From the NCBI GenBank assembly GCA_963726745.1, contig CAVSDR010000003.1, forward strand, positions 1,116,078-1,180,077: DNA of 64,000 nucleotides, written 5' to 3'. The notes under the pieces are model-generated. The model was given only the letters and a program-made list of their open reading frames with translations, ran no database searches and had not been told where the DNA came from. This document shows, piece after piece, positions 3 through 63,903 of this stretch. The DNA comes from an uncultured Verrucomicrobiae bacterium (lineage in GTDB: Bacteria > Verrucomicrobiota > Verrucomicrobiia > Chthoniobacterales > UBA10450). Numbering within the stretch: position 1 is the stretch's first letter; every line of letters begins with the position of its first letter. The translations under genes were made by a program, and so were the position numbers.

Positions 3-848
3 GTGGTCGCGCTCACGGATGACGGCCATTGCGTGCAGAATAACGAGCTTATGCGCCGCGCGGTGGAGTATGCCCGCATGGTCGGCCTGCCGCTGCTGGA
101 TCATTGCCAGGATTACCAACTCGTCGGCGATGGGGTGGTGCATGAAGGCTATTGGAGCACGCTCCTGGGCCTGCCTGGCTGGCCGGCGGCAGGCGAGGAA
201 ATGATCGTCGCGCGCAACATCTTGCTGGCTGAACTCTGCGATCATCAGATCCATTGCCAGCACATCAGCGCCGCGGGAAGCGTGCGATTATTGCGCGAAG
301 CGCGCGCCCGCGGGGTCAAGATCAGCGGCGAAGTTTGCCCGCACCATCTGGCGTTGACTGACGAAGCGATCCAGAACTTCGACACGAATTACAAAATGAA
401 TCCGCCGCTGCGGACGCGCGCGGACATCGAGGCGCTGCTCGCGGGTTTGGCCGATGGCACGCTCGACATCCTCGCGAGCGACCATGCGCCGCACGCGAAA
501 TTTGAAAAGGAGCGCGAGTTCGACCAGGCGCCCTTCGGCATTCTCGGCCTGGAGACGGAGCTGGGGCTTTTCCTCGACTTGCTGGTGCACAAAACCAGGA
601 CGCTCGAGCTGCCGCAAGTGATCGCCATGTTGACGGCTAATCCGGCGCGCCTTTTGAAATTAGCCAGCGGGACGTTAAGCCCCGGCGCGGTCGCCGATGT
701 GACCCTGATCGATCCCGAGCTCGAGTGGACCGTGGACGCCGGGGAATCAGCCAGCCTCTCGTGCAACACGCCTTTCCACGGCTGGCAGCTCAAGGGCCGC
801 GCGGTGCGCACGATCGTCGCCGGGAAGACGGTCTGGGAATTGCCCTAG
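3..848 (+). CDS. pyrC: Dihydroorotase (type I), 5'-truncated by window edge
   Basis: Motifs DHCQD, HCQHIS, EVCPHHL, KMNPPLR, ASDHAPH, APFGILGLET, NPARLL, TPFHGWQLKG. Confidence 0.93.
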   Translation: MVALTDDGHCVQNNELMRRAVEYARMVGLPLLDHCQDYQLVGDGVVHEGYWSTLLGLPGWPAAGEEMIVARNILLAELCDHQIHCQHISAAGSVRLLREARARGVKISGEVCPHHLALTDEAIQNFDTNYKMNPPLRTRADIEALLAGLADGTLDILASDHAPHAKFEKEREFDQAPFGILGLETELGLFLDLLVHKTRTLELPQVIAMLTANPARLLKLASGTLSPGAVADVTLIDPELEWTVDAGESASLSCNTPFHGWQLKGRAVRTIVAGKTVWELP

Positions 849-870
849 GCCGCGCGTGACCTTCGCGGGC

Positions 871-900
871 AAAAAAAAGCGCGACCATCGCTGGTCGCGC
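871..900 (-). terminator. Intrinsic terminator of sRNA copy 1
   Basis: Minus strand GCGCGACCA-GCGA-TGGTCGCGC-TTTTTTTT. Confidence 0.88.
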
Positions 901-950
901 TGCGGAAGCTAAGGAGATGTTAGTTTTAGTTGGTGACTCCCAGTTCGCAG
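871..950 (-). ncRNA. Candidate sigma54-dependent small RNA, copy 1 (~80 nt)
   Basis: Lies between a -24/-12 promoter (961-976) and a 9-bp GC stem with GCGA loop plus U8; near-identical second copy at 2602-2682; no start codon/ORF inside the predicted transcript. Confidence 0.75.
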
Positions 951-960
951 GTTCTTCTTT

Positions 961-976: not shown

Positions 977-1040
977 CGGCCGCGGCTGCGGGAATCTTTT
1001 TCGATAAAACTGTCAACGCCCTCAGCTTCGATTCCTTGGT

Positions 1041-2732: not shown

Positions 2733-4592
2733 CTACGTCTTGCCGGCAAAACTTTCCCACTCGGCGGTCACGCGTTCGAGTTCGGCCGCCACCCCGAGAA
2801 GCTCGCGGTTTAACTCCATCGCGTTTCCTCCGGCGTCGTAGGTTTCCGGCTTTTCCAACTGGGCGGTTAGTTCTTTCTGCCGGCCCTCCAGGGAAAGGAT
2901 ATGCATCTCGAGCTCGCGCGCTTTTTGTTCGTGCTCGCGCCTGGCTTTCGCTTCGGCCTTGCGCTGCTCGGCCTCGGCCCGGCGCAGTTGTTTCACTTCG
3001 CGCAGGCTCAGGTTTTCCGTCGAAGCGCTCGCCGCGGGTGCTTTCGGCGCGGTCGTCGGTTGCGCATTGCTCAAGGTCGTTCCGCTGGTCAGCGCGGCGC
3101 GCGCGGAAGTGGCGCGGGATTTATCGAGGTAATAATCGTAGTCGCCCGCGTAGGGCGTGAGCTGGCCGGCGCTGATGTGCAGGACGCTCTTCGCGACGGC
3201 GCGGATGAAATAAACGTCGTGGCTGATGAAAATGAGCGTGCCTTCGTATTGCGCGAGCGCGCCGACGAGGGCGTCGATGCTGCCGATGTCGAGGTGCGTC
3301 GTCGGCTCGTCCATCAAGAGGAGGTTCGGCGGATCCAGCAGCAACTTCACCAGGGCGAGGCGCGTCTTTTCGCCGCCGCTGAGGACGGCGGTCGTTTTGA
3401 AAACGTCGTCTCCGCGGAAAAGGAAGGAGCCGAGGACGGTGCGCGCGGTTTGTTCCGAGACCGGGTTCGGCATGTCGCGCGCGGTGTCGAGCACGGTCAT
3501 CATCGGCTGCAGCATCTCCACGCGGTGCTGCGCGAAGTAGCCGATCTTGACGTTGTGCCCGGGCTCGCGCGTCCCGCTTTGCACCGGGAGAACGCCGGCG
3601 AGGAGCTTGAGCAAAGTCGATTTGCCGGCGCCATTCGGGCCGACGAGGACGGTGCGCTGTCCGCGTTCAGCCTCGAAGTCTAACGACTCGTAAACCACGT
3701 GCTCGCCGTAGGCGTGGCGCACGTTCTCGAGCTTGATCACGCGATGCCCGCTGCGCGGCGGCTGCGGGAAGTGAAAGTGAACCGTCTTCTCGCGCGAGAC
3801 CGGCGCCTCGATCTTCTCCATCCGGTCGATTTGCTTCAGTTTGCTTTGCGCCTGCGACGCTTTGCTTGCCTTCGCGCGGAACCGATCGGCGAAGGCCTGG
3901 AGCGATTGGATTTCCTTCTGCTGATTCTTGTAAGCAGCGGCGTGCTGCTCTTCGCGCGCGGCTTTCTGCTCGACGTAGCTGTCCCAGTTTCCGCGGTAAC
4001 GCGCGAGCCGCTTGTGCGCGATCTCGATGATCGAGCCGACGAGCTGGTTCAGGAACTCGCGATCGTGCGAGATCATGAGGATCGCGCCCGGATAGCTCTT
4101 CAAATATTCCTGAAACCAGACGAGCGACTCGAGGTCGAGGTGGTTGGTTGGTTCGTCGAGCAGCAACAAGTCCGGCTCCATCACGAGCAGCCGCGCGAGA
4201 TGCGCGCGCATGATCCAGCCGCCGCTCAGTTCGCGCGCAGGGCGGTCGAAATCGCTCTCGCGAAAGGCGAGCCCGCTCAGGATCCGTTTCGCTTTCGGCT
4301 CGGTCTCCCAGTCGCTGTGCTCGTCGTAGTCGCCGCAGGCGAGCTTGAGCACGGTTTCCTCGCCGACGCTCGCGGTCTCCTGCGGGAGGAAGCCGAGCGT
4401 GGCCGATTTCTCGATCGAGACCTTGCCCTCGTCCGGCGAGGCCTCGCCGAGGATGAGCGAGAAAAGGGTCGACTTCCCCGCGCCGTTCGGGCCGACGAGC
4501 CCGATGCGATCGCCGCGATTCACCTGCAACGACGCATCCTCAAAAAGGGTGCGCCCGGCGAAGGCTTTCGAGACTTGGGAAATGGTGAGCAT
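2733..4592 (-). CDS. ABC-F family ATP-binding protein (YheS/Uup-like)
   Basis: Two ABC domains (GPNGAGKST x2, LSGG, LLDEPTNHLD, MDEPTTHLD), no TM segments, C-terminal coiled coil. Confidence 0.93.
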   Translation of the reverse strand: MLTISQVSKAFAGRTLFEDASLQVNRGDRIGLVGPNGAGKSTLFSLILGEASPDEGKVSIEKSATLGFLPQETASVGEETVLKLACGDYDEHSDWETEPKAKRILSGLAFRESDFDRPARELSGGWIMRAHLARLLVMEPDLLLLDEPTNHLDLESLVWFQEYLKSYPGAILMISHDREFLNQLVGSIIEIAHKRLARYRGNWDSYVEQKAAREEQHAAAYKNQQKEIQSLQAFADRFRAKASKASQAQSKLKQIDRMEKIEAPVSREKTVHFHFPQPPRSGHRVIKLENVRHAYGEHVVYESLDFEAERGQRTVLVGPNGAGKSTLLKLLAGVLPVQSGTREPGHNVKIGYFAQHRVEMLQPMMTVLDTARDMPNPVSEQTARTVLGSFLFRGDDVFKTTAVLSGGEKTRLALVKLLLDPPNLLLMDEPTTHLDIGSIDALVGALAQYEGTLIFISHDVYFIRAVAKSVLHISAGQLTPYAGDYDYYLDKSRATSARAALTSGTTLSNAQPTTAPKAPAASASTENLSLREVKQLRRAEAEQRKAEAKARREHEQKARELEMHILSLEGRQKELTAQLEKPETYDAGGNAMELNRELLGVAAELERVTAEWESFAGKT

Positions 4593-4683: not shown

Positions 4684-6804
4684 ATGACGCAACGCCTCTT
4701 CGCTTTCGCTCTCCTCTGTGTTGGCGCCGCTTTCGGGAAGGAGCCGGCGAAACCCTTTGATTATCCCAAGCCGCCAACAAGCGAGCAGACCGATGACTAC
4801 CACGGCACGAAAGTGGCCGATCCGTACCGTCCGTTGGAGAACGCTGACTCGCCGGAGACGCGCGCCTGGATCGAGGCGGAAAACAAGGTGACTGAGGGTT
4901 ACCTCAGCCAGGTGCCCGAGCGTGCGAAAATCAAGGAACGCCTGACCGCGCTCTGGAACTACGAAAAATTTGGCGTCCCGACGCGTGAAGGCGATCGCTA
5001 TTTCTTCTCGAAGAACAGCGGCCTGCAAAACCAGAGCGTGCTTTATGTCGCGCCGAAGCTCCCGGCGACCGACGCGCGCGAGTTGCTCGACCCGAACACG
5101 CTCGCGAAGGACGGCACGATGGCGCTCACCGGCACCGACGTGACTGAGGACGGCAAGCTGATGGCCTACGGCCTGGCCGATGCGGGATCGGATTGGCAGA
5201 AGTGGAAAGTGCGCGACGTCGAGACCGGGAAGGATCTGCCGGATCAGATCGAGTGGGTGAAATTTTCCAGCGCTTCGTGGAAGCCAGATGGCTCGGGATT
5301 TTTCTACAGCCGCTACGACGAGCCGAAGGGCGAGGAATTGAAGGCGGCCAACTTCAATCACAAGCTCTACTTCCACAAAATGGGCACGCCGCAGAGCGAG
5401 GACGTGCTCGTCTACGAGCGGCCGGATCACAAGGACTGGCTCTTCCAGGGGCGCGTGACGGATGACGGCGCGTATCTGATCATCCACGTCGCGCGCGGGA
5501 CGGAATCGAAGAATCGCGTCTTCTATAAGGACCTGCGCGACCCGGAGGCGAAAGTGGTCGAGCTCCTGCCGAAGGAAGACGCGAAGTATGATTTCGTCGG
5601 CAACGACGGCGGCGTCTTCTGGTTCAACACCAACCTCGACGCGCCGCGCGGCCGGATCATCGCGATCGACACCGCCAAGCCGGACGCGATCAAGGAGCTG
5701 GTCCCGCAGACCGAGAACAAGCTCGAGAGCGTCTCGCTCGTGGCCGACAAGTTCGTCGCCAACTACCTGAAGGACGCGCATGCACTCGTTAGTCTGTATG
5801 ACTTGAACGGGAAGCCGTCGGGCGAGATCGCGCTCCCGGGGCTGGGCGCGGCCGATGGTTTCACCGGCAAGCGCAAGGACAGCGAGACCTTCTATCGCTA
5901 CGTCAGCTTCATCGCGCCGCCGACGATCTATCGCTACGACTTCAAGACTGGGAAAAGCGAGGCGCTCTTCAAGCCGAAGGTCGATTTCAATTCCGACGAC
6001 TACGTCACCGAACAGATCTTCTACAAGAGCAAGGACGGCACGAAGGTGCCGATGTTCATCACGCACAAGAAAGGCGTGAAGCCGGACGGCAATAACCCCA
6101 CGCTGCTCTACGGCTACGGTGGCTTCGACATCTCGGTCGTGCCGGAATTCCGTCCGGCGGTCGCAGCCTGGCTACAAGCGGGCGGCGTTTACGCTTCTGC
6201 GACTTTGCGCGGCGGCGGCGAGTACGGCGAAGCCTGGCATCTCGCGGGCACGAAGTTAACCAAGCAAAACGTCTTCGACGATTTCATCGCCGCCGGTGAA
6301 TGGCTGATCGCGAACAAGTGGACCTCGACGCCGAAGCTCGCGATCAACGGCCGGAGCAACGGCGGCCTGCTCGTGGGCGCCGCGCTCACGCAACGTCCCG
6401 ATCTCTGGGGCGCGGCATTGCCATATGTCGGCGTGCTCGATATGCTCCGCTTCCAGAAGTTCACCATCGGCTGGGCCTGGGCGTCGGATTACGGCTCGTC
6501 GGATAATCCGGAGGAGTTTGAGGCGATCTACAAATACTCGCCGCTGCACAACGTGAAGCCGGGGACGAAATATCCGCCGACCTTGATCGTGACCGCGGAT
6601 CACGACGACCGCGTTTTCCCGGGCCACAGCTTCAAGTTCGCCGCCGCCCTGCAAGCCGCGCAGGCCGGCGACGCGCCCATCTTGATCCGCATCGAGACGC
6701 GCGCGGGTCATGGCGCCGGCAAACCGACTTCGAAAGTGATCGAGGATTACGTCGACCAGTTCACCTTCCTGGTGAAGGCACTCGAGATGAAGCTCGCGTT
6801 CTAA
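4684..6804 (+). CDS. Prolyl oligopeptidase (S9A), exported
   Basis: Signal peptide; DPYRPLE, YGYGGF, GRSNGG (catalytic Ser), DHDDRV, AGHGAGK. Confidence 0.95.
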   Translation: MTQRLFAFALLCVGAAFGKEPAKPFDYPKPPTSEQTDDYHGTKVADPYRPLENADSPETRAWIEAENKVTEGYLSQVPERAKIKERLTALWNYEKFGVPTREGDRYFFSKNSGLQNQSVLYVAPKLPATDARELLDPNTLAKDGTMALTGTDVTEDGKLMAYGLADAGSDWQKWKVRDVETGKDLPDQIEWVKFSSASWKPDGSGFFYSRYDEPKGEELKAANFNHKLYFHKMGTPQSEDVLVYERPDHKDWLFQGRVTDDGAYLIIHVARGTESKNRVFYKDLRDPEAKVVELLPKEDAKYDFVGNDGGVFWFNTNLDAPRGRIIAIDTAKPDAIKELVPQTENKLESVSLVADKFVANYLKDAHALVSLYDLNGKPSGEIALPGLGAADGFTGKRKDSETFYRYVSFIAPPTIYRYDFKTGKSEALFKPKVDFNSDDYVTEQIFYKSKDGTKVPMFITHKKGVKPDGNNPTLLYGYGGFDISVVPEFRPAVAAWLQAGGVYASATLRGGGEYGEAWHLAGTKLTKQNVFDDFIAAGEWLIANKWTSTPKLAINGRSNGGLLVGAALTQRPDLWGAALPYVGVLDMLRFQKFTIGWAWASDYGSSDNPEEFEAIYKYSPLHNVKPGTKYPPTLIVTADHDDRVFPGHSFKFAAALQAAQAGDAPILIRIETRAGHGAGKPTSKVIEDYVDQFTFLVKALEMKLAF

Positions 6805-8679: not shown

Positions 8680-8702
8680 CGACCGCTTCACCGTCTAATC
8701 AA

Positions 8703-8740
8703 GGGAGCCCTCGCACGCTGGTGCGGGGGCTCTTTTTTTT
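8703..8740 (+). terminator. Intrinsic terminator
   Basis: GAGCCCTCGCAC...GTGCGGGGGCTC followed by T run. Confidence 0.85.
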
Positions 8741-8746
8741 AGCCGG

Positions 8747-15356: not shown

Positions 15357-15367
15357 ACAGCGCTTTC

Positions 15368-44790: not shown

Positions 44791-45236
44791 GCGGCGTAAC
44801 CGCCGGAGATGTAACGCTCGAGCTGCTCGAGCGCGGCGCCTTGCACGGAAATGACGTGCTTCACCAGATCGCCGATGGAGATCACGCCGCAGATGTCGCC
44901 CGCGCGCACCACCGGCAGATGGCGGATGCGCTTCTCGGTCATGAAGCGCAGGCAATCGTCGACCGACTGTTTCGGGTCCACCGTGGTCAGCTGCGAGGTC
45001 ATGATCTCCTTGACCTTGGTGTCGCGGGAACGCTTCCCGTGCAGCATGATTTTGCGGGTGTAATCCCGTTCCGAAATAATTCCCACGAGTTCGCCGTGCT
45101 CGACTACAAGGAGCGCCCCGACGTTCTTCTCGGCCATCAAAGCCACCGCGTCGTAGACCGTGGCATCGGGGTCGATCGAGATCACTTCGCCGCGCTTCTG
45201 ATTCAGGATTGAGTCGATGTTGCCGGTTACGTTCAT
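44787..45236 (-). CDS. CBS domain protein
   Basis: NVGALLV, GIISERDY, RIRHLPV, ISIGDLVK. Confidence 0.92.
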   Translation of the reverse strand: MNVTGNIDSILNQKRGEVISIDPDATVYDAVALMAEKNVGALLVVEHGELVGIISERDYTRKIMLHGKRSRDTKVKEIMTSQLTTVDPKQSVDDCLRFMTEKRIRHLPVVRAGDICGVISIGDLVKHVISVQGAALEQLERYISGGYAA

Positions 45237-50358: not shown

Positions 50359-50472
50359 TTTGCGGAGGGACAAGGTAGCGCGGTCTGGCCGTTTTGCTAA
50401 CGGCGAATCGCCTTCTGTCCTTCCGCGCGACTTGGCCGCCCGGATGCTCCGGGCATCGCTCCCGGGGGAGAA

Positions 50473-53516: not shown

Positions 53517-56500
53517 ATGAAAAAAGCCTTACTCTTCGCCGCCGCATTCGTTCTTCTCAGCCGGCCCGGTGCCGAGGCCGGGCCTTTGACGGAAGCGCGA
53601 GTGACCAAGATCATCAACGATGTTCGGCTGGTCGACCCGGCGACCGGTGCGCGCGCCGCTGCGGTTAACGACCTGATTAAAGAGGACCTCGGTTTGCGCA
53701 CTGGCTTGAAAAGCCGCTCCGAGTTGCTCTTCCAGGACGAGACGCTCACCCGCATCGGGCCCGAGACCTTCTTCAGTTTCCGCCCCGGCACCCGCGACCT
53801 CACGTTGCAACAAGGCACCATGCTCTTGCAGGTGCCGAAAGGTTTGGGCGGGGCCAAGATTCACACCGCGGCCGTGACTGCCTCGATCACCGGGACCACG
53901 ATCATGATCGAGTATCTCCCGAAGCAGCACATCAAGGTGCTGGTGCTCGAGGGAAGCCTGCGGCTTTCGGTCAATGGCCGGGTCGGTGATTCGCTCCTGC
54001 TTTTACCCGGCAAGATGGTCATCATGGCGCCGGATGCGAAGCGCATCCCGGAGCCGGTATCGGTGAACCTGGCCCTCTTGGTGAAGACCTCGTCGCTGGT
54101 GAACTTTGCCCAGGAAGGGGAGACCGCGCAGCCGCTGCCGAGCCTGCCTTTGATCGAACGCGAAATCGCGGAGCAGGGGAAACAGAAAGGCCGCACGGAG
54201 TTGCTCGAGACCAATCTCGTCATCGCCGGCCACGGGACCAAGGTCACGATGGTAGGCGACACCACGGTCGAGCAGATCGCGCCCGCCAACGAGATCTTGC
54301 TGGCTAAAGCTGAGCCCACGCCGACGCCCGCGCCTCTTCCTTCTGCGACTCCGCGCCCGATCTCGACACCTACGCCACACTCACTCCCACTCCGCAAAGC
54401 ACACCAACACCAACCGCGACCCCGTTGACTTCGCCGACGCCAAGCCCTGCGCCGACCGTCACACCCACCGCCACCCCGGCACCTACCGCCACGCCCACGC
54501 CAGCGCCCACTGCCACGCCAATAGCGACAGTCACCCCAACGCCGCTCCCCTCCGCGACGCCGATCGTGACTCCCACCCCGGCGCCAACGGCGACGCCGAG
54601 CGCCACCGCCACCCCGCTGCCGACCGCGACGCCGCTCCCCACCGCCACTCCCGCGCCCACGGCGACCCCGATTCCTACTGCGACTCCGCTGCCCACGGCC
54701 ACGCCAGTGCCGACCGCGACGCCAGTGCCGACTGCGACGCCAGTGCCGACTGCGACGCCAGTCTGCCCACGGCTACGCCGCTCCCGACGGCTACGCCCAC
54801 AGCCACGCCGTTGCCTACGGCCACGCCGACGGCTACTCCCACGGCCACTCCTGTTCCCACGCCGGCACCGACAGCTTTCCCGGGCGCAAGTCCGACGCCG
54901 AATCCTGCACCGACGCCGAACCTGAATCCGGCGCCGGCCGGCACTCCTCCGCTCATCTCAAGTGGCGGGCCTTACATCCTCAAGTCCTCCACCGTGATCG
55001 ACACCTCACGCGTGGCGCCGGCGATCACCACCGATGCCGTCACGGACGCCGGATCCTTTTTCCGGAGCGTGGCTGCGAACGGTTCGCCCTCGGCCTTTCT
55101 CTTCGGCGCGACCTCGGCGTTCGATAACCAGGTCAACTTCGACAACCAGTTTGCCAGCGACTTCTCGAACACGGGCGTCTATCGATTCTCCGCGCTGCAG
55201 ATCGAGGGCAATCCCACCTTCGTTACCCGCGACGGGGCGAATCGCATTGGCTTGATCGCGCAAACAGACATCACCTCGTCGTCCCTGGGCGGAAACGTCA
55301 ACCTGAGCGGTCTCGACAGTCTTTTCCTGGGGACCGTGAGCGGCTCCATTTCCTTAAGCGACCGCTTCAGCTTCACCAAGGCCGACGGTAGCGCCTTCAA
55401 GCTGATCCAGCTCTATGCGCGTAACGGCAGCGTGAACTTCGGCTCCTCGATGAACCTCAAGGATGCGAACCTCAGTCTCTACGCGCAGCAGAACGTCACC
55501 ATTGATTCCACCGCCAGCATTTTGGCCAACTCCGCCATCCTTACCGGGCTGGGCGCGACCACGATTAATGGCTCGCTTTCCGCGCATTTCGCACAGGTCT
55601 ATGCAGGCACCAACCTGGTTGTAAACGGCAGCATCGCGGCCGAGACGATCTACGGCTTTGGCGGCACCGGCACGATCAGCGGTTCATTTAGTGGACGAGA
55701 TGTTTCCCTGCAGACAGGCGGCGACTTAACCCTGACCAGCGCCGGGTCCCTTAGCTCGGCCGACAAACTCACCGTCGTCACTGGCGGCGCGCTCAATCTC
55801 GCCGGCTCCACCACGGACCTCGAGGATGCCAGCAGCTCAAGCAAAACCTACACGCTCCAGGCCGGGACCGACCTGAACTTAAGCGGCGTGCTCACCGCTT
55901 CCTACACGCTCAACGCCAGCGGCCGCACGGCGAACCTAAGCAATCTCGTCACCGGGAAAACAGTTAACTTCACCCTTACGGACGACTTCAACATGGTTAA
56001 CCCCGGGAAGATCAACAGCAACGACCTCACGATCACCACAGGCGGCGCGATCAACCTCGGCGCGGTCAATAACACCAGCGGGATCGTCCTCAAATCAGGC
56101 GGCAACATCAAACTCCCGAGCGGCGCGATCGCCTTCAACGGCCCCGTGACCACGAAAAACCTGACCGCCATCGGCACCACCTTGACCGCAAAGGCACCGG
56201 TTACCGGTCAGCAATTAACCCTGAACGCCTCGGTCGACTTTATCTCCGCCGTCGGCGGTAATCTGACGGGCACAGGACCAGGCAGCAGCCTTTTGATCAC
56301 CGCGGCTAATTTGGTCACCTTGAGTGGCCTAACGACCGGAAACAACATCACGGTTACCTCCGGCACAGGTGGCAACGCCGGCGTCCTGGCGATCAACGGC
56401 GCCATCCAGGCGCAATCGAGCCTGACCGCAAACGCGCCCGCAACGACCCTGAACGCGGTCGTGAGCGGCAAGGACGCGAGCTTTAATTCCGGCACCGTTT

Positions 56501-59217
56501 TCGCCATGACCGGCGTCGGCGGCTTCAACCTCACGGGCGACGCCACGATCGCCGCCTCCAGGACCCTGACTCTCGACGGCCCCATCACCACGCTGGGTAA
56601 TCTGACCTTGAACGGCCTCGCCACGATCAACGCCAACAGCAGCATCAGCAGCCAGGATGTCACCGTGGCCGGAACCAACGTCACCTTCGCCGGCGGGATT
56701 TCTGCGAAGCATTTTACGGTCAATAACCAGGGCGACTTGCTCCTCAGCGGCACGGGCTCCCTCACGGCGAGCGATGTGGTCAGCTTGACCGCGAGGAATG
56801 GGGTGACGCTCAATGGCGCGTCCTCCGGAAAATCTTTCCTCATCTCCGCCGGAAAAGACCTAACGACCAACGCGGTCATGCAAACGCCCGGCAGCTTTGT
56901 CGCGACGACCAGGAACGCTTACATCAATCAGTCGCTCAACGCCGACAATGCCACCTTCAATGTCGTGACCGATTTCGAGCTTAGCCCAACCGGGGCGATA
57001 ACCACTGGTCACGACATCAACATTACCTCCAGCGGACGGGACATTACGCTGAGCGCCGCCACCAACTCGGGGAAGCTGAATCTCACCGCGCTCAAGGGGA
57101 ACGTGACCATGGATGGAAACGCGCAAGCGCAGGCGATGACGATCACGGGCAAGAAGGCCTTCATCGGCGGCAGTCTCAACTCCACCGGCGATTTGAACTT
57201 TGCGATGTCGCAAGACTTCATCCTTAAGACCCCTGGTAGCCTAACGACCAATGGCAACATCATCATCGCCGGCCAGGGCATCACCCTGGGCGGGAGCAGC
57301 ACCGGCAACACCTATAAGCTGACCGGCACGAAAGACCTGACCGTGGATGGCACCGTGGGCGCGCAGGATTTTCAAGCCACCGCGGCTTCCGCGATCTTTA
57401 ACTCCACTCTCCTAAGCGCGAAAAACATCGCGCTGACGCTGAATGGAGATTTAACCACTGGGGCGAGCAGCAACCTTTCCGCAGCGTCCGGCTTTACCGG
57501 CACCGCGACTGGCTCCGCCTACCTTTCGGGCGCTTTGACGGCGCCGACGATTGCGCTCACGGCAACCAAAGACCTCTTCGTCAACAACGGCTCGCGTCTC
57601 CAAGCTTCGCGCTCGCTCAACCTTAGCGGCGCCACCGCGACCATCGCCGGCATCGTGAATTCACCCACGGTGTCCATCACTGGAACCAACGGGATCACCT
57701 TTGACGCCGCGACGGGTTATCTCTCGGCCGACAATGTGACGTTAAATTCCCCCACGGGAATTTTGACCCTGGCCTCGGCGACGAATGGCACTGGCGGTGT
57801 CGATGCCGCCCGCCTGCAGTCGCTCAACGCCACTGCGGACAGCGTCATTCTCCTGAGCAGCTTCGCCCTCGCGCCGAGTTCATCGAATCTCACCATCGGG
57901 TCGGGCGGCGTGACCGCGACCGGCTTCGACGTTTCAGGATTCGACAAGATTACCCTTAACAGCAGCAGCTACCTCGGGCGCGATCTCTCGGTCAATACCC
58001 TCACCTTTAACGTCAAAGGCGATCTCATCCTCACCGGCAATCTCTACGCCGCGCAAAAAGCGACCACGTCGGGTGGCGTAGTCATCGTCGACGGAATGGT
58101 CGGTGGCGGCGATATCCTCGCCACCAAGATCACCGCTGGTGGAAGCAGTGCCGCCAGCCTGACTGCGACCAGTCTCCTGACCTTGGGCGCAGAGGGGATT
58201 GTTTCCGGGAGCACCGTGGGCACCAAGTCGATCAACGCTCCTTCGATCAAGTGGGGCACGGGTGGAGTCGCACTCGGTGGCGCCGCCGGCACGGCCGCCC
58301 TCGCGCCCGGCGCTGCTTCCAGCCTCGACGTGACGACCAGCGCCCTCGCCATCGGGGCGAACAACACCGACCTGAAGAGCGTGGAGCTCTCCGGCGGCGA
58401 TGCCGATCCGACGCGCAATGATGCCGGCGGCAACGGCGGCAGCTTCAGCGTGACCACGACCGGCGCGATCACGGTCGACGCCCCGATCACGGCGACCACC
58501 GGATTAAACAGCAAGAGCGGCACCAGCGGCGGCAATGGCGGCAACGTCAATTTGACCGCAAACGGAGCCGTGACCGTCAATTCCAAGATCGAAACTTCCT
58601 CCAATGATGGCGGCCGCCGCGCCAGCGCCAAAGGCGGCAAGATCACCCTCACGAGCAAGGCCACGACCAACAGCGGAATCACCGTCGGGAGCAGCGCCCA
58701 GTTGCTCGCGCTCTTGAGCAACGCCGCTCCGGGGCCCGGCGGGACGATCAAGTTCAGTTCCTCCGGCGGCGACATCAACATGAGCGGCACGGCCAAGGCG
58801 GACCGGGGCACGATCGACATCCAGAACAGCGGCAAGCTCGGAAAGGTGAACCTCACCAACAGCACCCTCAGCGCGGATGTGGTCAAAGCGGGCGCGCTCG
58901 GGTCGAACGGCACCCTGACGGTCAATGGCGGCACGCTCTCCGCTGATTCCGCGCTCAAGCTCTACGCAGGTGGAAGCAGCGGCACGATCCTCTTTGCCGG
59001 CAATGTGACCTTGAACGGAAACAGTGTGAAGACGATCGCGGCCAACACGGTCACGATCGCCAATGGCAAGGTGGTCACGATCGGCGGACCGCTGCCGGCA
59101 AACGTGTTCACGAATACGCCAAATTATACCGGCTTCGGCGGGAATAATTCCACCAGCGGAACCTTCGCTGGCACCGGTGCTGCTACCAAACCGTTGCTTC
59201 TCGCACCCGGTTATTAA
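53517..59217 (+). CDS. Large secreted FecR-domain / Pro-Thr linker / beta-helix-like protein (~1900 aa if joined; frameshifts near 54380-54420 and 54765)
   Basis: Signal peptide; RTGLKSRSELLFQDETLTRIG...TASITGT FecR-like domain; TATP repeats; G/T/S/A/N-rich passenger; ends APGY; same architecture as intact paralogue at 59852. Confidence 0.8.
54313..54935 (+). repeat. Degenerate 18-nt tandem repeat encoding PTATP(L/V/A/I)
   Basis: e.g. consecutive CCGAC(C/T)GCGACGCCAGTG units around 54710-54762. Confidence 0.85.
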
Positions 59218-59741: not shown

Positions 59742-59851
59742 CACTCGTTAGGCGAGGCCTCGCTGATTTTTTCCGGGGCTTTCTGATAATTTCCAGACTG
59801 GCGGGCCTGCCGCTTGCTCTCTCCGAGAGCAGGGAATTGCTCACCACAATC

Positions 59852-62023
59852 ATGGACAAACGTTTCTTCTTCACTGCCGCCCTGCTCACGGGACTCTTCG
59901 CTGGCGCGAGCCAGGCCGGTCCGCTCACCCGCGCCAAGGTCACCAAGATCGTCAACGACGTCCGCGTGGTCGATCCCGCGGTTGGCGGCCATCCCGCCAC
60001 GCTGGCGGAATCGATCCACGACGATCTGCGCTTGAAGACCGGCGTGAAGTCCCGCTCCGAGCTGCTTTTTGAGGATGACACCCTCACGCGCATCGGGCCG
60101 GAGAGCTTCTTCAGTTTTCGCCCCGGCACCCGCGACCTCGAACTCCAGCAAGGCACTTTGCTTCTCCAGGTGCCGAAAGGCCTCGGCGGCGCCCGCATTC
60201 GCACCGCTGCAGTCACGGCCTCGATCACCGGCACCACCATCATGATGGAAAACGTCCCCGGCCGGCCGCTCAAGGTGCTTGTGCTCGAGGGCAGCCTGCG
60301 CCTGGCGATGAACGATCGCGCGGCTGACGCGGTCACGTTGACTGCCGGCAAGATGGTCACCGTGCCGGTGGGCGCGACCAAGATGCCCGCGCCCGTCTCG
60401 GTGAATCTGGCGCGCGTCATGGAGACGTCGGCCTTGGTCAACATGGATCCTGCCGGCCAGCCGCTGCCGAGCGCAAATTTGATCGCGAGCGAAATCAGCG
60501 CGCAGAGCCAACGAGAGGATTCCCTGGAAGGGAAAGTGGAACTCGCCGGCGACCAGATGTTCGACGCGCTCGCAAAGAAAAACTCCGTGAGCACGAGCGT
60601 GCCTGATCCCGTGGCCGCGACCCCTACGCCAGGACCCGCAGTCACCCCGGCCGCCACGCCCACACCGACATCGACTCCAACCCCAGGCAGCACCCCGACT
60701 CCCGGCCCGGTGACTACGCCGACTCCAACGCCGGCAACCACCGCCACGCCCGCGCCCACTGCGGCACCGACGCCCAGCGCAAGCCCCGTGGTGATCGCCA
60801 ACGTGCGCGACCTCACGATTAACTCGCCCCTCGTCGGCCCCAGCTTTCGTCTTTTGGCCGGAAAGGATCTCGAGGTGAATGCCTCCATTACCGCAAGCAT
60901 GCTCTCCTTCGCCGCGGGCGGAAACGCGACCATCGATGGACTCGTTAGGGCGAAGGATCTTTCCGGGGTTGTAGGCAATTCCCTGGAAGTGAATCGCTCG
61001 CTCGACGTGGACAACATCACCCTCACCCTGGGCGAAAGGCTGAAGCTTTCCGTGCCCTTGGTCGCGCCCGCGGCAGCCGGCACCGTCTCCGCCGCCCCGG
61101 CCGATGGTCGCAGCCTCTCGCTTTCGCTCGACTCGTTAGACCTCAACACCGTCGGTTCCGGCAAGCTCGCCCCGGTGACGCTCAACGGCGGCGACGCTGC
61201 AGCCGCCAGTCAATTTGCCGGCGGTTCCGGCGGCTCCTTGACCATCGGTGCGGTCGACGCGCCTACGAAGGGAGGCATCACTTTCTCGGCGCCGCTCCAT
61301 GTCACCACCGGCGCAAACGGTCACGACGTCGCCTTCGGCGGCCAGGGTGGCCATGTCGCTGTCTATTCGAAGGACAAGATCGCGGTCAAATCGACCATCC
61401 AGGTTTCGAGTTCCACTGCGGGCCGCGCCAGTGCTCGCGGCGGCGACATTCTCCTCGACAGCCGGCGCACCAAGGATGTCGCGATCGAGATCGGCACCTC
61501 CAGCCAGCTCCTCGCCTTGCTCGACGCTGCCGCTCCCGGGCCAGGCGGCTCCGTGACCATCGTCGCCGCCGGCGGCAGCATTAAAATGAACGGCACCGCG
61601 CGCGCCGACCGCGGGAAGGTGGAGCTGCGCAACGAGGGCAACAAAGGCGAAATCACGCTCTCGAAGGCCGATCTCCGCGGCGACGTGGTCAAGCTTGGCG
61701 TCCTCGGGAATGACGGCACCCTCACCATCGGCGGAGGCACGATCGACGCGAACTCGGTGATCAAACTCTACGCCGCCGGAAGCAACGGCAGCGTCGTCTT
61801 CAACGACAACGTCACCCTGAGCGGGAACAGCGTGAAGACGATTGCCGGCAACACCGTCACGATCAACAACGGCAAAGTCGTCACCGTCACCGGTCCCGCG
61901 CCTGCGAGCGTCTTCACCAATAAGCCAAACTACAGCGGCTCCGGCGGCAATGGCACCACCACCGGCACCTTCGGCGGCGCCGGAGCGACTACCCACGCCT
62001 TCACCGCCGCGCCCGGCTACTAG
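59852..62023 (+). CDS. Secreted FecR-domain / Pro-Thr linker / beta-helix-like protein, short paralogue
   Basis: Very similar FecR-like N-domain and C-terminal ~280 aa to 53517-59217; ends APGY. Confidence 0.88.
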   Translation: MDKRFFFTAALLTGLFAGASQAGPLTRAKVTKIVNDVRVVDPAVGGHPATLAESIHDDLRLKTGVKSRSELLFEDDTLTRIGPESFFSFRPGTRDLELQQGTLLLQVPKGLGGARIRTAAVTASITGTTIMMENVPGRPLKVLVLEGSLRLAMNDRAADAVTLTAGKMVTVPVGATKMPAPVSVNLARVMETSALVNMDPAGQPLPSANLIASEISAQSQREDSLEGKVELAGDQMFDALAKKNSVSTSVPDPVAATPTPGPAVTPAATPTPTSTPTPGSTPTPGPVTTPTPTPATTATPAPTAAPTPSASPVVIANVRDLTINSPLVGPSFRLLAGKDLEVNASITASMLSFAAGGNATIDGLVRAKDLSGVVGNSLEVNRSLDVDNITLTLGERLKLSVPLVAPAAAGTVSAAPADGRSLSLSLDSLDLNTVGSGKLAPVTLNGGDAAAASQFAGGSGGSLTIGAVDAPTKGGITFSAPLHVTTGANGHDVAFGGQGGHVAVYSKDKIAVKSTIQVSSSTAGRASARGGDILLDSRRTKDVAIEIGTSSQLLALLDAAAPGPGGSVTIVAAGGSIKMNGTARADRGKVELRNEGNKGEITLSKADLRGDVVKLGVLGNDGTLTIGGGTIDANSVIKLYAAGSNGSVVFNDNVTLSGNSVKTIAGNTVTINNGKVVTVTGPAPASVFTNKPNYSGSGGNGTTTGTFGGAGATTHAFTAAPGY

Positions 62024-62041
62024 CATTCGCAGGAGCACACC

Positions 62042-62755
62042 ATGGAGCCGACCGATACCCCCGCTGCCCACACCGCGCAGCCCGCGATTGCCAGCGAGCT
62101 GAATAATCTTTTGCAGATCATCGCTGGCACCAGCTCGCTCATCGAAAACATCTGGGAAGGCAAGCCGGGTGCGGCCCGCTATTTCGAGATGTTGCGCGAG
62201 AGCATCGCCCGCGCGGCCGACGTCACCACCGACCTGATGGCGCTGTCTAGTTCCGTCCATTCCGTCGGCACCAAGATCGTCCTCCACCCCGCCTGGGCCC
62301 GTCGCCAGGAGGAAAAGGCCGCCCAGCCCCCTTCCGTGGCGAAGCAGCGAATCATGCTCGTGGACGACGAGAAAATGCTGCTCGTGGTCAACGGCGAGAT
62401 CCTCCGCGAGGCCGGTTACGAAGTCGTGACGGCACAGTCCGGCTTCGAGTGTCTTGATCTCTTCCGCGCCGGCGGCGCCCGGTTCGATCTCGTCTTGCTC
62501 GACTTGAACATGCCGCTGATGGACGGCGAAGAAACCTTCCATCGCCTGCGCGAGCTGAAGCCGGACCTGCGCGTCATGCTTTGCACCGGCTACGTCCACC
62601 AGGAACGGCTCACCCATATGATGGACGCCGGCCTTTCCGGCTTCATGCAAAAGCCCCTCGGCTCGCAGCAGTATCTCGAGCGCATCCGCGACGTCCTCGC
62701 GCGCAACATCTTTACCTACGGTTGCGCTGCGGCGCGCAGCCTCACCGCGGTTTAG
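62042..62755 (+). CDS. Response regulator with degenerate HisKA-like N-terminus
   Basis: IASELNNLLQIIAG; IMLVDDE, LLDLNMPLMDG, CTGY, QKP. Confidence 0.88.
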   Translation: MEPTDTPAAHTAQPAIASELNNLLQIIAGTSSLIENIWEGKPGAARYFEMLRESIARAADVTTDLMALSSSVHSVGTKIVLHPAWARRQEEKAAQPPSVAKQRIMLVDDEKMLLVVNGEILREAGYEVVTAQSGFECLDLFRAGGARFDLVLLDLNMPLMDGEETFHRLRELKPDLRVMLCTGYVHQERLTHMMDAGLSGFMQKPLGSQQYLERIRDVLARNIFTYGCAAARSLTAV

Positions 62756-62766
62756 CCGGCATTCTC

Positions 62767-63903
62767 ATGCTCAACGCGCTGCCTAACGACTGCTTCGATG
62801 CCTTTGCGGCCAACCGGCTCTTTGAAGGCATCCGCCCGGAGCTGCTCGCCCCGGTCGCGCACGAGCTTCATGTCGTCCGCCTGAATGAGGGCGAAGTCAT
62901 TTTTCGCGAAGGCGATCCCGGCGATTCACTTTATCTCGTCGGCCAGGGCTCGGTGCAAATCTCAAAGCGCGGCCGCGGCGGCAACCAGGAAACGCTCGCC
63001 TTCATTCAATCCGGCAATTTCTTCGGCGAAATGGCGCTGCTCGATGGCCAACCGCGCTCCGCCATGGCCACCGCCGTCGGCTCGACCATTCTCGGCACGG
63101 TCACCGAGGAAACTTTCCAGCATATTCTCGAGCTCGCGCCCAATCGCTTGCACATGAATTTCCTCCGCTCGGTCTCCGAGCGGCTTCGCCAGGTGAACTC
63201 GCACTTCATCACTGAGGTCATGCGCTCCGAGCGGCTCAGCCTCGTCGGCTCGATGGCAAACTCGATCATCCACGACCTGAAGAATCCGATCTGCATCGTC
63301 CGTTGCTGCGCCGATCTCATCGCCAGCCAGACCACCGATCCGCGGATGCACGACCTCACTTCCATGCTCGGCAAAGCGGTCGACGGGATGACCTCGATGA
63401 CCCAGGAACTGCTCGACTACGCCCGCGGTTCCACCTCCCTGCACAAGGAACGCGTCTCCCTCTGGCGCCTGATGGACGAACTGAATCAGCAAGCGCTGCA
63501 GCTATTGCCCGGGCAAAACATCCAGTTCGTGAAGCACCTGCGTTACGACGGCGATCTCGAGATCGACCTTGCCCGCTTCACGCGCGTGCTCTGCAATCTG
63601 ATCAAAAACGCCCGCGAAGCCATGCCCGGCGGCGGCATTCTCAATCTCGCCACCGAATTGCGCGACGGGCAGGTAAGCCTCACTCTCTCCGACACCGGCT
63701 GCGGCATTCCCGCAGACATCCTGCCGAAACTCTTCGAGCCTTTCGTGACCCACGGAAAGTCACATGGCACCGGCCTCGGCATGGCCATCGCAAAATCCAT
63801 CGTCGAAGCGCATGATGGCACCATCGCCGTCCGCAGCACTGTCGGCACCGGCACCACCGTCGAGATCCGCCTGCCCGCCGCCGCGGCTCCGGTCAGCGCC
63901 TAG
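62767..63903 (+). CDS. cNMP-binding-domain histidine kinase (soluble)
   Basis: FFGEMALLDGQPRSA, IIHDLKNP, NLIKNAREA, DTGCGI, FEPFVT, GTGLG. Confidence 0.93.
   Translation: MLNALPNDCFDAFAANRLFEGIRPELLAPVAHELHVVRLNEGEVIFREGDPGDSLYLVGQGSVQISKRGRGGNQETLAFIQSGNFFGEMALLDGQPRSAMATAVGSTILGTVTEETFQHILELAPNRLHMNFLRSVSERLRQVNSHFITEVMRSERLSLVGSMANSIIHDLKNPICIVRCCADLIASQTTDPRMHDLTSMLGKAVDGMTSMTQELLDYARGSTSLHKERVSLWRLMDELNQQALQLLPGQNIQFVKHLRYDGDLEIDLARFTRVLCNLIKNAREAMPGGGILNLATELRDGQVSLTLSDTGCGIPADILPKLFEPFVTHGKSHGTGLGMAIAKSIVEAHDGTIAVRSTVGTGTTVEIRLPAAAAPVSA

What the first reader, a model, noticed from the sequence alone, without database searches (positions are those of the whole stretch)
635..62789. 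Highly iterated motif TCGTTAGNC (core TTAGNC) embedded across the window: candidate uptake or chromosome-organising signal
Seen (counted by eye): 26 copies of TCGTTAGNC or its reverse complement GNCTAACGA, starting at 3678, 5786, 8674, 15057, 17102, 17319, 19051, 19344, 25455, 26387, 36369, 37169, 37629, 37977, 38109, 39149, 42457, 43587, 44784, 48032, 51100, 56327, 57239, 59745, 61133 and 62781 (14 plus, 12 minus). A zero-order estimate at an assumed ~64% GC gives only about 1-2. Roughly three quarters of all TTAG/CTAA tetramers I found (~79 of ~107) are TTAGNC/GNCTAA. Copies sit mostly inside genes in different frames (TCG-TTA-GNC, CTC-GTT-AGT, GGC-CTA-ACG, CCT-AAC-GAC, CGT-TAG stops), often using rare TTA/CTA codons, so this is not a single codon-pair effect. 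Established: frame-independent, non-polar iterated motifs include Neisseria DUS, Pasteurellaceae USS and cyanobacterial HIP1, whereas Chi and KOPS are strand-polarised. Inference: a lineage-specific DNA uptake sequence, nucleoid-protein site or methylation/repair-driven motif that I do not know to be described.
Basis: partly seen in the sequence, partly recalled or inferred. Interest (0 to 1): 0.85.

Follow-up and report, generated by a model that had tools for sequence, protein, structure and literature searches.

The report
Hyperabundant self-marking DNA words, Chthoniobacterales
This soil bacterium has written two short DNA words thousands of times through its genes and spacers, much like the "self" tags that Neisseria and Haemophilus use to choose which DNA to take up, and its relatives carry these and a third word in different combinations.

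Summary

Genome-wide, TCGTTAGGC (word A) occurs 1312 times in 3.4 Mb, about 67-fold over a third-order Markov expectation. It uses every stop-free reading frame and is denser between genes. It shows no replication polarity and survives codon and dicodon nulls.

Word A is hyperabundant across one Chthoniobacterales family and nowhere else among 398 other genomes of the phylum. Word B (RAAWTTAGCCRRC-N4-TS, 958 core copies) is almost private to this species. A third word, C (TGTCGATCT), fills other genera of the family. All four combinations of A and C occur.

B sites arose by all 12 substitution types. Vsr is not found here, and C5 and Dam methylases do not track the words, so a simple repair or methylation origin is disfavoured. 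A polar Chi/KOPS role is rejected.

Best reading (about 0.4): uptake-sequence-like or HIP1-like self-recognition words, each with its own unidentified reader. Function is untested and no ComP-type receptor was found.

My literature searches found no description. Earlier notes of this scan report similar words in other Verrucomicrobiota genomes.

The parts
3678..3686 (-). word A variant TCGTTAGAC
   Evidence: in ABC-F ATPase gene, sense frame 0
5786..5794 (+). word A variant TCGTTAGTC
   Evidence: prolyl oligopeptidase gene, sense frame 1; G013 and G024 have TCGTTAGGC here
8674..8682 (-). word A variant TCGTTAGTC
   Evidence: overlaps gene end
15057..15065 (+). word A variant TCGTTAGCC
   Evidence: sense frame 0
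17102..17110 (+). word A variant TCGTTAGTC
   Evidence: aminotransferase gene, antisense frame 2
17319..17327 (+). word A TCGTTAGGC
   Evidence: antisense frame 1; also exact in G015, one-off in 4 relatives (G013, G024, G078, G154), two-off in G148
19051..19059 (+). word A variant TCGTTAGTC
   Evidence: supplies the TAG stop of gene 18368-19057
19344..19352 (+). word A TCGTTAGGC
   Evidence: GNAT gene, antisense frame 1
25455..25463 (+). word A TCGTTAGGC
   Evidence: ispG (GcpE) gene, sense frame 0
26387..26395 (-). word A variant TCGTTAGTC
   Evidence: glycosyltransferase gene, sense frame 0
36369..36377 (-). word A TCGTTAGGC
   Evidence: agmatine/peptidyl-arginine deiminase gene; conserved in G013
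37169..37177 (+). word A TCGTTAGGC
   Evidence: helicase-like gene, antisense frame 1; exact in 4 of 5 aligned relatives
37629..37637 (-). word A TCGTTAGGC
   Evidence: exact in 3 of 5 aligned relatives
37977..37985 (-). word A TCGTTAGGC
   Evidence: exact in 4 of 5 aligned relatives
38109..38117 (-). word A variant TCGTTAGCC
   Evidence: 4 of 5 aligned relatives have TCGTTAGGC here
39149..39157 (+). word A variant TCGTTAGCC followed by AGC, so it also fits the 3' half of word B
   Evidence: intergenic
42457..42465 (+). word A variant TCGTTAGCC
   Evidence: sensor kinase gene, sense frame 1; not in relatives
43587..43595 (-). word A TCGTTAGGC
   Evidence: intergenic
44784..44792 (+). word A TCGTTAGGC
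   Evidence: supplies the stop of the yidD gene; also in G024
48032..48040 (+). word A TCGTTAGGC
   Evidence: sufBD gene, antisense frame 1; also in G013
51100..51108 (-). word A TCGTTAGGC
   Evidence: CHASE2-cyclase gene, sense frame 0
56327..56335 (-). word A TCGTTAGGC
   Evidence: 1468-aa gene, antisense frame 1
57239..57247 (-). word A TCGTTAGGC
   Evidence: 1468-aa gene, antisense frame 1
59745..59753 (+). word A TCGTTAGGC
   Evidence: intergenic
61133..61141 (+). word A variant TCGTTAGAC
   Evidence: FecR-like gene, sense frame 0
62781..62789 (-). word A TCGTTAGGC
   Evidence: antisense frame 2; not in relatives
659..668 (+). word B core WTTAGNCRRC
8301..8310 (-). word B core
8738..8747 (+). 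word B core
11427..11436 (-). word B core
14001..14010 (+). word B core
15352..15361 (+). word B core
17977..17986 (+). word B core
19423..19432 (-). word B core
19911..19920 (-). word B core
20598..20607 (+). word B core
20878..20887 (-). word B core
26846..26855 (+). word B core
28872..28881 (+). word B core
29532..29541 (+). word B core
32009..32018 (-). word B core, in tpiA
   Evidence: all 5 relatives differ here
32664..32673 (+). word B core, in pgk
   Evidence: relatives have TTTGC, TTGGC or TTCGC here
33282..33291 (-). word B core, in pgk
33291..33300 (+). word B core, in pgk, back to back with the previous one
34942..34951 (-). word B core
36144..36153 (-). word B core
37545..37554 (-). 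word B core
38388..38397 (-). word B core
   Evidence: 4 of 5 relatives read ACATGGC here, G024 ACAAAGC
41110..41119 (-). word B core
43691..43700 (+). word B core
46980..46989 (-). word B core, shared with G015
47261..47270 (-). word B core
47815..47824 (+). word B core
48769..48778 (+). word B core, shared with G015
50472..50481 (+). word B core
54299..54308 (-). word B core
62751..62760 (+). word B core

Best explanation
The window samples a genome-wide system of hyperabundant, lineage-specific DNA words. Word A, (W-N-N-A-C)TCGTTAGGC, is about 15 informative bases long and is inherited across one Chthoniobacterales family. Word B, RAAWTTAGCCRRC-N4-TS, is about 19 bases long and arose recently in this species lineage. 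A third word, C (TGTCGATCT), replaces or accompanies A in other genera. Shown: each word is an asymmetric site read at the level of double-stranded DNA, and it is written into genes by ordinary base substitutions. Sites are kept far longer than the neighbouring bases and are missing from recently acquired DNA. Inferred: each word is bound by its own sequence-specific reader protein, and these readers can be gained and lost independently. The words most likely act as 'self' tags in DNA exchange. On this reading, word-bearing DNA is preferentially taken up (or preferentially survives and recombines) through the ComEC/DprA/secretin machinery, and that bias, together with homologous recombination, drives the words to high copy number, as proposed for DUS/USS and recently for HIP1.
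For: Abundance: 1312 exact A sites against 19.7 expected under a third-order Markov model. There are 925 in CDS against about 22 after a synonymous shuffle. Of 731 Ser-Leu-Gly tripeptides, 421 (58%) are spelled TCG-TTA-GGC, although TTA makes up 0.3% of codons.
Read as DNA: all 4 stop-free frames are used, and 30% of sites are intergenic or at a gene edge against 16% non-coding DNA. The flank logos in coding and intergenic sets are the same for A and for B. There is no preference for the promoter or terminator side, or for orientation.
No replichore polarity: orientation walks are random on 4 contigs (P 0.18-0.83), while GC skew and gene orientation on contig C3 are structured.
Spacing: same-word pairs closer than 200 bp are about half of the Poisson expectation for A (0.054 against 0.115) and are also scarce for B (0.064 against 0.091). 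There is no A-B repulsion.
Lineage specificity: 24 of 24 same-genus genomes are enriched and 16 of 16 sister-family genomes are depleted. Counts within the family reach 4336. Among the 398 other genomes of the phylum searched, none exceeds about twice its control.
Independent words: B is enriched only in G000, G015 and G046 among the 121 family genomes searched. C reaches 4941 copies in genus g42, which also carries A.
Maintenance: exact A sites are conserved in 15 of 36 aligned pairs against 11.9% for all 9-mers, at about 76% overall identity.
Deserts: the longest gaps are a low-GC polysaccharide cluster and genes for surface proteins.
Proteome imprint, as reported for USS: SLG is 1.58-fold and PNE 2.37-fold over expectation.
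Machinery: ComEC, DprA and 3 secretin matches are present.
Precedent: HIP1 is now proposed as an uptake watermark (PMC13756078, abstract and section 14).
Against: No function was tested, and no cultured or transformable member is known to me.
No ComP_DUS-type receptor was found; matches are sub-threshold pilin hits only, and they also occur in a genome with no word.
The ComEA-like match in G000 is weak (29.3 bits).
ComEC, DprA and secretins are equally present in genomes without any word (G063 and the outgroup G027), so they do not explain who carries a word.
Two unrelated words at about 1000 or more copies each in one genome, with no mutual repulsion, is not the pattern described for DUS or USS, where one dialect dominates (my recall of PMC3630211; only its abstract start was seen).
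There are no inverted-pair terminators: 2 of 495 +/- neighbour pairs lie within 30 bp.
One-off variants at the six critical positions are depleted (332 observed against about 541 zero-order expected, my sum over). That suggests sharper enforcement than a weak uptake bias.
Confidence: 0.4

Rival explanations
1. The words are binding sites of sequence-specific chromosomal proteins (nucleoid organisation, condensin loading, or repair and strand discrimination). Direct selection in cis keeps them at a density of about one per 1-2 kb. This is the kind of role proposed for HIP1 by Xu, Lawrence and Durand.
For: The density is even and the sites avoid each other at short range. Sites are conserved above background. 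Critical one-off variants are depleted, as expected under purifying selection on each site. There is no link to transcription signals. For HIP1, conservation was read as selection for a role in chromosome structure (PMC5861425, abstract).
Against: Words A, B and C are gained and lost in a mosaic between genera and even between species, which is fast for a core architectural system. Genomes with no word exist in the same family (G063 and most of genus g22). Selection per site would have to be very weak, yet it would have had to build about 1000 B sites in a single species lineage. No candidate protein was identified.
Confidence: 0.2
2. The words are by-products of biased repair or gene conversion. 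A sequence-specific nuclease or mismatch-correcting enzyme converts near-cognate sequences into the word, so the word spreads without serving the cell.
For: Near-cognates at critical positions are depleted. Enforcement of the exact word is very sharp. The mosaic of independently gained and lost specificities resembles the way mobile nuclease or modification genes behave.
Against: Vsr was not found in G000, which is 94.7% complete. C5 methylase occurs in only 33 of 121 family genomes and is missing from many word-rich ones, such as G078, G154 and G066. Dam-type methylase occurs in 23 of 121 and does not track word C. The 18 B sites that could be polarised arose through all 12 substitution types spread over all 10 positions, usually 2-5 changes per site; a single mismatch-correction reaction would not do that. 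TTGTTAGGC, the product of deaminating the CpG cytosine, is enriched 8.7-fold rather than depleted.
Confidence: 0.13
3. The words are targets of orphan or restriction-linked N6/N4 methyltransferases and act as epigenetic self marks. This is HIP1-like, and their abundance would be tied to a methylation-dependent step such as protecting incoming DNA.
For: HIP1 is read by two methylases and raises transformation in a methylation-dependent way (PMC13756078, abstract and section 14). Several specificities per genome that turn over quickly are typical of methylase specificities.
Against: The two methylase families I tested (PF00145, PF02086) do not track the words. The words are asymmetric and 15-19 bp long, unlike usual methylase targets (recalled, not tested). 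Restriction targets are normally avoided rather than enriched (recalled). Other methylase families and methylation itself were not tested.
Confidence: 0.12
4. The words are polar recombination or segregation signals of the Chi or KOPS type.
For: They are short, over-represented, lineage-specific words, and Chi sequences also differ between lineages (recalled).
Against: Orientation is random along all four large contigs (P 0.18-0.83), while GC skew and gene orientation do show structure on C3. The strand split is 868 + to 887 -. RecC was not found in the 4 family genomes searched; AddAB was not tested. The 67-fold enrichment far exceeds that of Chi in E. coli (recalled).
Confidence: 0.02
5. The motif is a codon-pair or peptide-motif effect, or a chance or assembly artefact.
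For: Sense frame 0 (Ser-Leu-Gly) is the largest single class, with 421 of 1312 sites.
Against: All four stop-free frames and intergenic DNA carry the word with the same flank logo. The shuffle nulls fail to reproduce it. Every one of the 24 same-genus genomes searched, and most of the 120 other family genomes, show an excess over the reversed-word control.
Confidence: 0.01

Closest known systems
USS of Pasteurellaceae and DUS of Neisseriaceae (DNA uptake enhancing sequences)
   Same: Both are non-palindromic words with a 9-12-base core and weaker flanks, present in thousands of copies (here 0.4-1.7 per kb). They lie on both strands equally, in all usable reading frames and more densely between genes. 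They are scarce in recently acquired DNA, leave an imprint on tripeptide usage, and are lineage-specific with variant words in related lineages. ComEC, DprA and secretin genes are present.
   Different: This is a different phylum (Verrucomicrobiota, Chthoniobacterales). The sequences are unrelated. No ComP_DUS receptor was found. There are no inverted-pair terminators. Two or three unrelated words coexist at high copy number in one genome and assort independently among genera. Preferential uptake is untested.
HIP1 (GCGATCGC) of cyanobacteria
   Same: The fold enrichment is comparable: 15- to 300-fold for HIP1 by the abstract of PMC5861425, 67-fold here. Sites are conserved beyond background between genomes. 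There is no role at the gene level. The function has long been unknown and is now argued to lie in DNA exchange (PMC13756078).
   Different: HIP1 is a palindrome read by known methylases and is nearly phylum-wide. The words here are asymmetric and limited to a family or a species, and the C5 and Dam methylase families do not track them. Word C shares the letters CGATC with HIP1, which may be coincidence.
Chi and KOPS/AIMS (polar chromosome words)
   Same: They are short, over-represented, lineage-specific oligomers inside genes.
   Different: Those are strand-polarised relative to replication. These words are not.
NTS/SRM repeats read by Ssn nucleases (PMC11893778)
   Same: [quoted passage not shown]
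   Different: By sections 6-7 of that paper, NTS/SRM are hairpin-forming elements of about 30 bp that cluster around genes. The words here have no dyad symmetry (logos), lie inside genes and are spread evenly.

Membership tests
DNA uptake enhancing sequences (DUS/USS) | Short non-palindromic word in hundreds to thousands of copies, far above composition-based expectation | tested here: met
   There are 1312 copies against 19.7 expected (third-order Markov) and 59 for the reversed word. The excess survives the codon and dicodon nulls.
DNA uptake enhancing sequences (DUS/USS) | Both orientations equal, no replication polarity, present in coding DNA in every usable frame and enriched between genes | tested here: met
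DNA uptake enhancing sequences (DUS/USS) | Restricted to one lineage, with variant words (dialects or types) in related lineages | tested here: met
   The variants here are unrelated words rather than one- or two-base dialects.
DNA uptake enhancing sequences (DUS/USS) | Under-represented in recently acquired DNA | tested here: met
   The longest gaps are low-GC regions. A 25-kb polysaccharide cluster holds no site (P x n = 0.0006), and surface-protein genes are also poor in sites. Only the 5 longest gaps were annotated.
DNA uptake enhancing sequences (DUS/USS) | Competent cells preferentially take up DNA that carries the word | not testable with these tools
   This needs uptake or transformation assays.
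DNA uptake enhancing sequences (DUS/USS) | Competence machinery encoded (ComEC, DprA, type IV pilus secretin, ComEA) | tested here: inconclusive
   ComEC, DprA and 3 secretin matches are present. The ComEA-like HHH_3 match is only 29.3 bits over part of the model. The same genes are present in genomes without any word.
Neisseriaceae DUS specifically | ComP minor pilin receptor (Pfam ComP_DUS) | tested here: not met
   The best match in G000 scores 21.9 bits against a cut-off of 27.3. Similar weak pilin hits occur in the word-less genome G063.
Neisseriaceae DUS specifically | Frequent inverted pairs that form terminators | tested here: not met
   Only 2 of 495 +/- neighbour pairs lie within 30 bp, against 9.3 expected by chance. 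Convergent spacers show no excess.
HIP1-type highly iterated palindromes | Palindromic octamer | tested here: not met
   Words A, B and C are all asymmetric.
HIP1-type highly iterated palindromes | Cognate orphan methylases that co-occur with the word | tested here: not met
   PF00145 is found in 33 of 121 and PF02086 in 23 of 121 family genomes, and neither tracks A or C. Other methylase families were not tested.
Chi / KOPS / AIMS | Strand polarity that switches at the origin and terminus | tested here: not met
VSP-repair-driven word bias (Dcm/Vsr type) | A Vsr endonuclease with a C5 methylase, and a single T-to-C type bias | tested here: not met
   No Vsr match was found in G000. New sites arose through all 12 substitution types. 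The deamination product TTGTTAGGC is enriched rather than depleted.
Ssn-related motifs (NTS/SRM) | Hairpin-forming repeat of about 30 bp clustered beside genes | tested here: not met
   The logos show no dyad symmetry. The spread is even, with no clusters of more than 5 sites per kb. The ssnA gene itself was not searched for.

The most novel reading that the evidence does not exclude
One Chthoniobacterales family, whose word-carrying genomes include records titled Candidatus Udaeobacter, runs a modular DNA self-recognition system. It has several unrelated genome-wide words (A, B, C and probably more). Each would be read by a separate reader that can be gained and lost, and each would be driven to thousands of copies. 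If so, sequence-selective DNA exchange, by natural transformation or by an as yet unknown route, is common in this uncultured soil lineage and can switch its 'password' within the divergence of a genus. This would be the first such system outside Proteobacteria and Cyanobacteria and the first with several passwords in one genome.
Probability: 0.35. Interest if true: 0.9.

Novelty: new variant of a known kind. Interest (0 to 1): 0.8.

Why it matters
Hyperabundant non-polar DNA words are known from only three lineages: Neisseriaceae, Pasteurellaceae and cyanobacteria. In each they have been a key to how bacteria tell their own DNA from foreign DNA.

Here the same signature appears in uncultured soil Verrucomicrobiota (Chthoniobacterales). 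It comes with something those systems lack: three unrelated words that assort independently among genera, and one word (B) caught at an early, species-level stage.

That natural presence/absence matrix makes the open question directly testable by phylogenetic profiling over the hundreds of available genomes: what reads such words, and what drives them to thousands of copies?

The words would also be practical markers. They could help in binning these genomes, in spotting foreign DNA within them, and in designing DNA for genetic access to lineages that have not yet been transformed.

Tried and rejected
1. The first k-mer script timed out. I reran it with numpy.
2. In one search I took over-represented 9-mers in 50-100 kb samples of G063, G002, G027 and G030 for further "dialects". 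One search showed they are 7-bp tandem arrays (G063, G002, G027) or local repeat clusters (G030). I rejected them. Only word C of G073 is a dispersed word.
3. The five-genome hint that C5 methylase presence matches word presence did not hold at family scale. The same was true for Dam.
4. ComP_DUS gave only sub-threshold matches to generic pilins. A regex for prepilin leaders found 4 such proteins in my crude gene calls, and none was followed further.
5. A scan of viral contigs with a 14-mer that holds word A gave 91 stretches. Of the 80 fetched, 67 held only the seed match and none had host-like density over 10 kb or more. This is too weak to say whether phages of these hosts carry the word.
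6. For sequencing runs, only two soil runs of one study held small shares of the stretch (0.13 and 0.06). Laying three runs gave short contigs from many related organisms and no usable variants at word sites.
The look-up by place among relatives found nothing.
8. I looked for local clusters of words that might flank a reader gene, as NTS flanks ssnA. There were none above 5 per kb.

Full report
**Observation.** The count is exact. TCGTTAGNC occurs 26 times in the window at the listed coordinates, 14 on + and 12 on -. Dinucleotide-preserving shuffles give a mean of 1.01 and a maximum of 5. TTAGNC occurs 80 times against 36.6 expected. The window holds 109 TTAG/CTAA tetramers, so 73% of them are TTAGNC. 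The window is G000:C3:1116078-1180077 of a 3.41-Mb, 7-contig assembly with 63.7% G+C. It carries ordinary housekeeping genes: gap, pgk, tpiA, sufBD, ispG, an ABC-F ATPase, sensor kinases and others.

**Genome-wide enrichment and null models.** TCGTTAGNC occurs 1755 times, 868 on + and 887 on -.
- The dominant form, TCGTTAGGC, which I call word A, occurs 1312 times. The third-order Markov expectation is 19.7, the zero-order expectation is 24.3, and the reversed word occurs 59 times. It heads every unbiased list of over-represented 8- to 10-mers.
- I called genes crudely with a codon-usage scorer of my own: 2656 genes, 84% coding. All statements about reading frames rest on these calls.
- A occupies all four frames that do not create a stop codon: sense 0 (421), sense 1 (86), antisense 1 (218), antisense 2 (200). 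A further 248 sites are intergenic and 139 overlap gene ends, where the word often supplies the TAG or TAA stop. That makes 30% outside genes, against 16% non-coding DNA.
- Shuffling synonymous codons within each gene leaves about 22 copies in CDS, against 925 observed.
- The dicodon expectation for TCG-TTA-GGC is 141 against 421 observed, and that null is itself inflated by the word.
- Of 731 Ser-Leu-Gly tripeptides, 421 (58%) are spelled with the word, although TTA makes up 0.3% of codons.
- The proteome bears the imprint. SLG is 1.58-fold and PNE 2.37-fold over amino-acid expectation, while their reversals are not comparably raised (GLS 0.88, ENP 1.29).

**Anatomy of word A.** The flanks carry the same information in the 248 intergenic and the 940 coding sites: W at -5, A (rarely C) at -2, C at -1, and purines after the word. 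So the site is an asymmetric element of about 15 bp, read as DNA. Single changes are tolerated at position 2 (TTG, 121 copies), position 8 (any base, 80-240 copies) and position 9 (G or T). One-off variants at the other six positions sum to 332 against about 541 expected, which is a depletion (the sum is mine).

**A second word.** TTAG sites not preceded by TCG or TTG form another family. Its consensus is RAAWTTAGCCRRC-R-M-N-H-T-S.
- The T that lies 14 bases from the first W is present in 91% of intergenic and 82% of coding sites.
- The core WTTAGCCRRC occurs 958 times. It uses four of the six reading frames, and 29% of sites are non-coding or at a gene edge.
- The window holds 31 copies of the looser core WTTAGNCRRC.

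**Distribution along the chromosome.**
- Density is even, at about 25 per 50 kb.
- Orientation walks of A and B cannot be told from permutations on the four large contigs (P 0.18-0.83). GC skew (P 0.018) and gene orientation (P < 0.0005) on C3 do show structure.
- In spacers there is no preference for divergent, convergent or tandem contexts, or for orientation.
- Same-word neighbours closer than 200 bp are under-represented: A 0.054 against 0.115 expected, and B 0.064 against 0.091. A and B do not repel each other.
- There are no inverted-pair terminators.
- The longest word-free stretches are a 25-kb polysaccharide-synthesis cluster with 58% G+C, and genes for secreted or giant surface proteins.

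**Phylogenetic distribution of A.**
- All 24 same-genus genomes are enriched, with 138-2412 copies, at least 2.4 times the reversed control. All 16 genomes from 16 sister families of the order are below their control, with 1-19 copies.
- Across 120 further genomes of the family (36 genera), counts run from 13 to 4336. The maximum is G089, at 1.35 per kb. There is little or no excess in genera g22, g39, g49 and g29.
- Of 398 genomes from the rest of the phylum (at least 85% complete), none exceeds about twice its control; the maximum is 134 against 66.
- A 14-mer that holds the word was scanned over species genomes.

**Words B and C.**
- B is enriched only in G000 (958 against a control of 76), G015 (254 against 102) and G046 (190 against 72) among the 121 genomes.
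- G073 (genus g49) lacks A and B, but a 282-kb sample holds 98 dispersed, two-stranded copies of TTGTCGATCTTG, which I call word C.
- C is hyperabundant in g42 (2894-4941 copies), g21 (2807), g25, g30, g38, g32, g50, g27, g46, g47, g49, g29 and g23. It sits at a baseline of 40-110 copies elsewhere, including G000 with 60. The reversed word is a poor control here because it contains CTAG.
- All four combinations occur: A only (g41, g19), A with C (g42), C only (g49), and neither (G063 of g39, most of g22).
- Figures for G001, G008, G042, G046 and G053 come from unpublished genomes. Only the statement that B is enriched in G046, and the listing of g29 (represented here only by G053) among the genera without A and with C, depend on them.

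**History of sites.** Same-genus genomes align to the window at about 76% identity.
- Exact A sites are identical in 15 of 36 aligned site-genome pairs (42%), against 11.9% for all 9-mers. B sites are identical in 4 of 87 pairs (4.6%), against 9.8% for all 10-mers. So A sites are maintained and B sites are new.
- Many A sites are shared by G013, G024, G078 and G154 but are missing in G000, G015 and G148, so turnover continues.
- For 18 B sites with at least 3 aligned relatives, the derived changes include all 12 substitution types at all 10 positions, usually 2-5 per site. The words replace existing codons base by base; they are not inserted.

**Genes.**
- ComEC, DprA and secretins are present in G000, and equally in G089, G073, the word-less G063 and the outgroup G027.
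- ComP_DUS gives only sub-threshold pilin matches.
- The ComEA-like match in G000 is weak.
- Vsr was not found in G000, G063 or G027.
- C5 methylase is found in 33 of 121 and Dam-type methylase in 23 of 121 family genomes. Many word-rich genomes lack them.
- RecC was not found in the 4 family genomes searched.

**Interpretation.** The following are shown.
- The words are DNA-level, asymmetric and non-polar.
- They are hyperabundant, maintained and lineage-specific.
- They are written in by substitution and are scarce in foreign-looking DNA.
- They come as at least three independent specificities.

That is the signature of DUS/USS, and in part of HIP1. It excludes explanations by codon usage, peptide motifs, promoters, terminators, Chi/KOPS and simple VSP or deamination.

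The following are inferred. Each word has its own protein reader that can be gained and lost. The most economical force able to raise about 1000 sites in one species lineage is a drive or selection tied to DNA exchange (confidence 0.4). Against a plain uptake-sequence reading stand several facts: two words coexist without cross-repulsion, no known receptor family is present, there are no terminator pairs, and the competence genes are uninformative. The rivals are direct selection for a chromosomal binding protein (0.2), function-free biased conversion (0.13) and an untested methylation mark (0.12).

**Literature.**
- The exact word and its complement occur in 130 papers. The 20 listed are unrelated by their titles.
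- "DNA uptake sequence" together with Verrucomicrobia gave 3 papers, none on this subject by title and abstract start.
- Three broader searches listed only work on Neisseriaceae, Pasteurellaceae and cyanobacteria, or unrelated work.
- I read the abstract and outline of PMC5861425, the abstract and sections 6-7 of PMC11893778, and the abstract and section 14 of PMC13756078. Other papers named here were seen only as search listings.
- Earlier AI notes of this scan report similar hyperabundant words in other Verrucomicrobiota genomes. One of them (e1-2962804, a soil 9-mer) may be word A, but its letters were not shown, so I could not check.

Noticed in passing
window 33292-33365 (- strand), pgk: Phosphoglycerate kinase is split into two overlapping open frames (33292-33780 and 32499-33365) by a one-base frame change just upstream of the conserved ...[11 protein letters not shown]... 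stretch. This is either an indel error of the assembly or a real frameshift. In my crude gene calls, dxr (22148-22744) and an M29 peptidase (14335-15356) also look truncated or split.
   Followed up: partly
L018 12730-12800, L021 4617-4631 (G063); L027 13776-13847 and 17614-17635 (G002); L037 61-194 (G027): Related Verrucomicrobiota genomes carry arrays of 7-bp tandem repeats (units GTGAACG, GTAGGAA and ATGACTG). They resemble contingency-locus microsatellites. I first mistook them for dispersed words.
   Followed up: partly
G000:C7:60030-85007 (outside the window; L157, L158): A 25-kb cluster with 58% G+C holds DegT aminotransferase, epimerase, C-methyltransferase, glycosyltransferase, Wzy and ABC-transporter genes and not a single copy of word A. 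It is probably a horizontally exchanged polysaccharide locus.
   Followed up: partly
L053 15399-15729, L056 13089-13430 (G030, sister family): There are local clusters of GTCTTTGCGTGAG-like repeats on both strands within a few hundred bases. They could be arrays of operator sites or a small repeat element.
   Followed up: no
window 33282-33300: Two word-B cores sit back to back on opposite strands inside pgk (GCTGGCTAATTTAGGCGAC). Together they form a near-palindrome that encodes Leu-Ala-Asn-Leu-Gly-Asp.
   Followed up: no
Genome-contig scan, L260-L322: Twelve of the 80 listed chance-level hits of the 14-mer lie in Gemmatimonadaceae, Gemmatimonadales or Gemmatimonadota genomes. This is probably because the group is G+C-rich and has many species in the collection.
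   Followed up: no
G000:C6:823700-827700 (L160 4326-8345): A 4-kb stretch with no called gene lies inside a 15-kb gap in word A, next to the RNase PH gene. It may be an rRNA operon.
   Followed up: no
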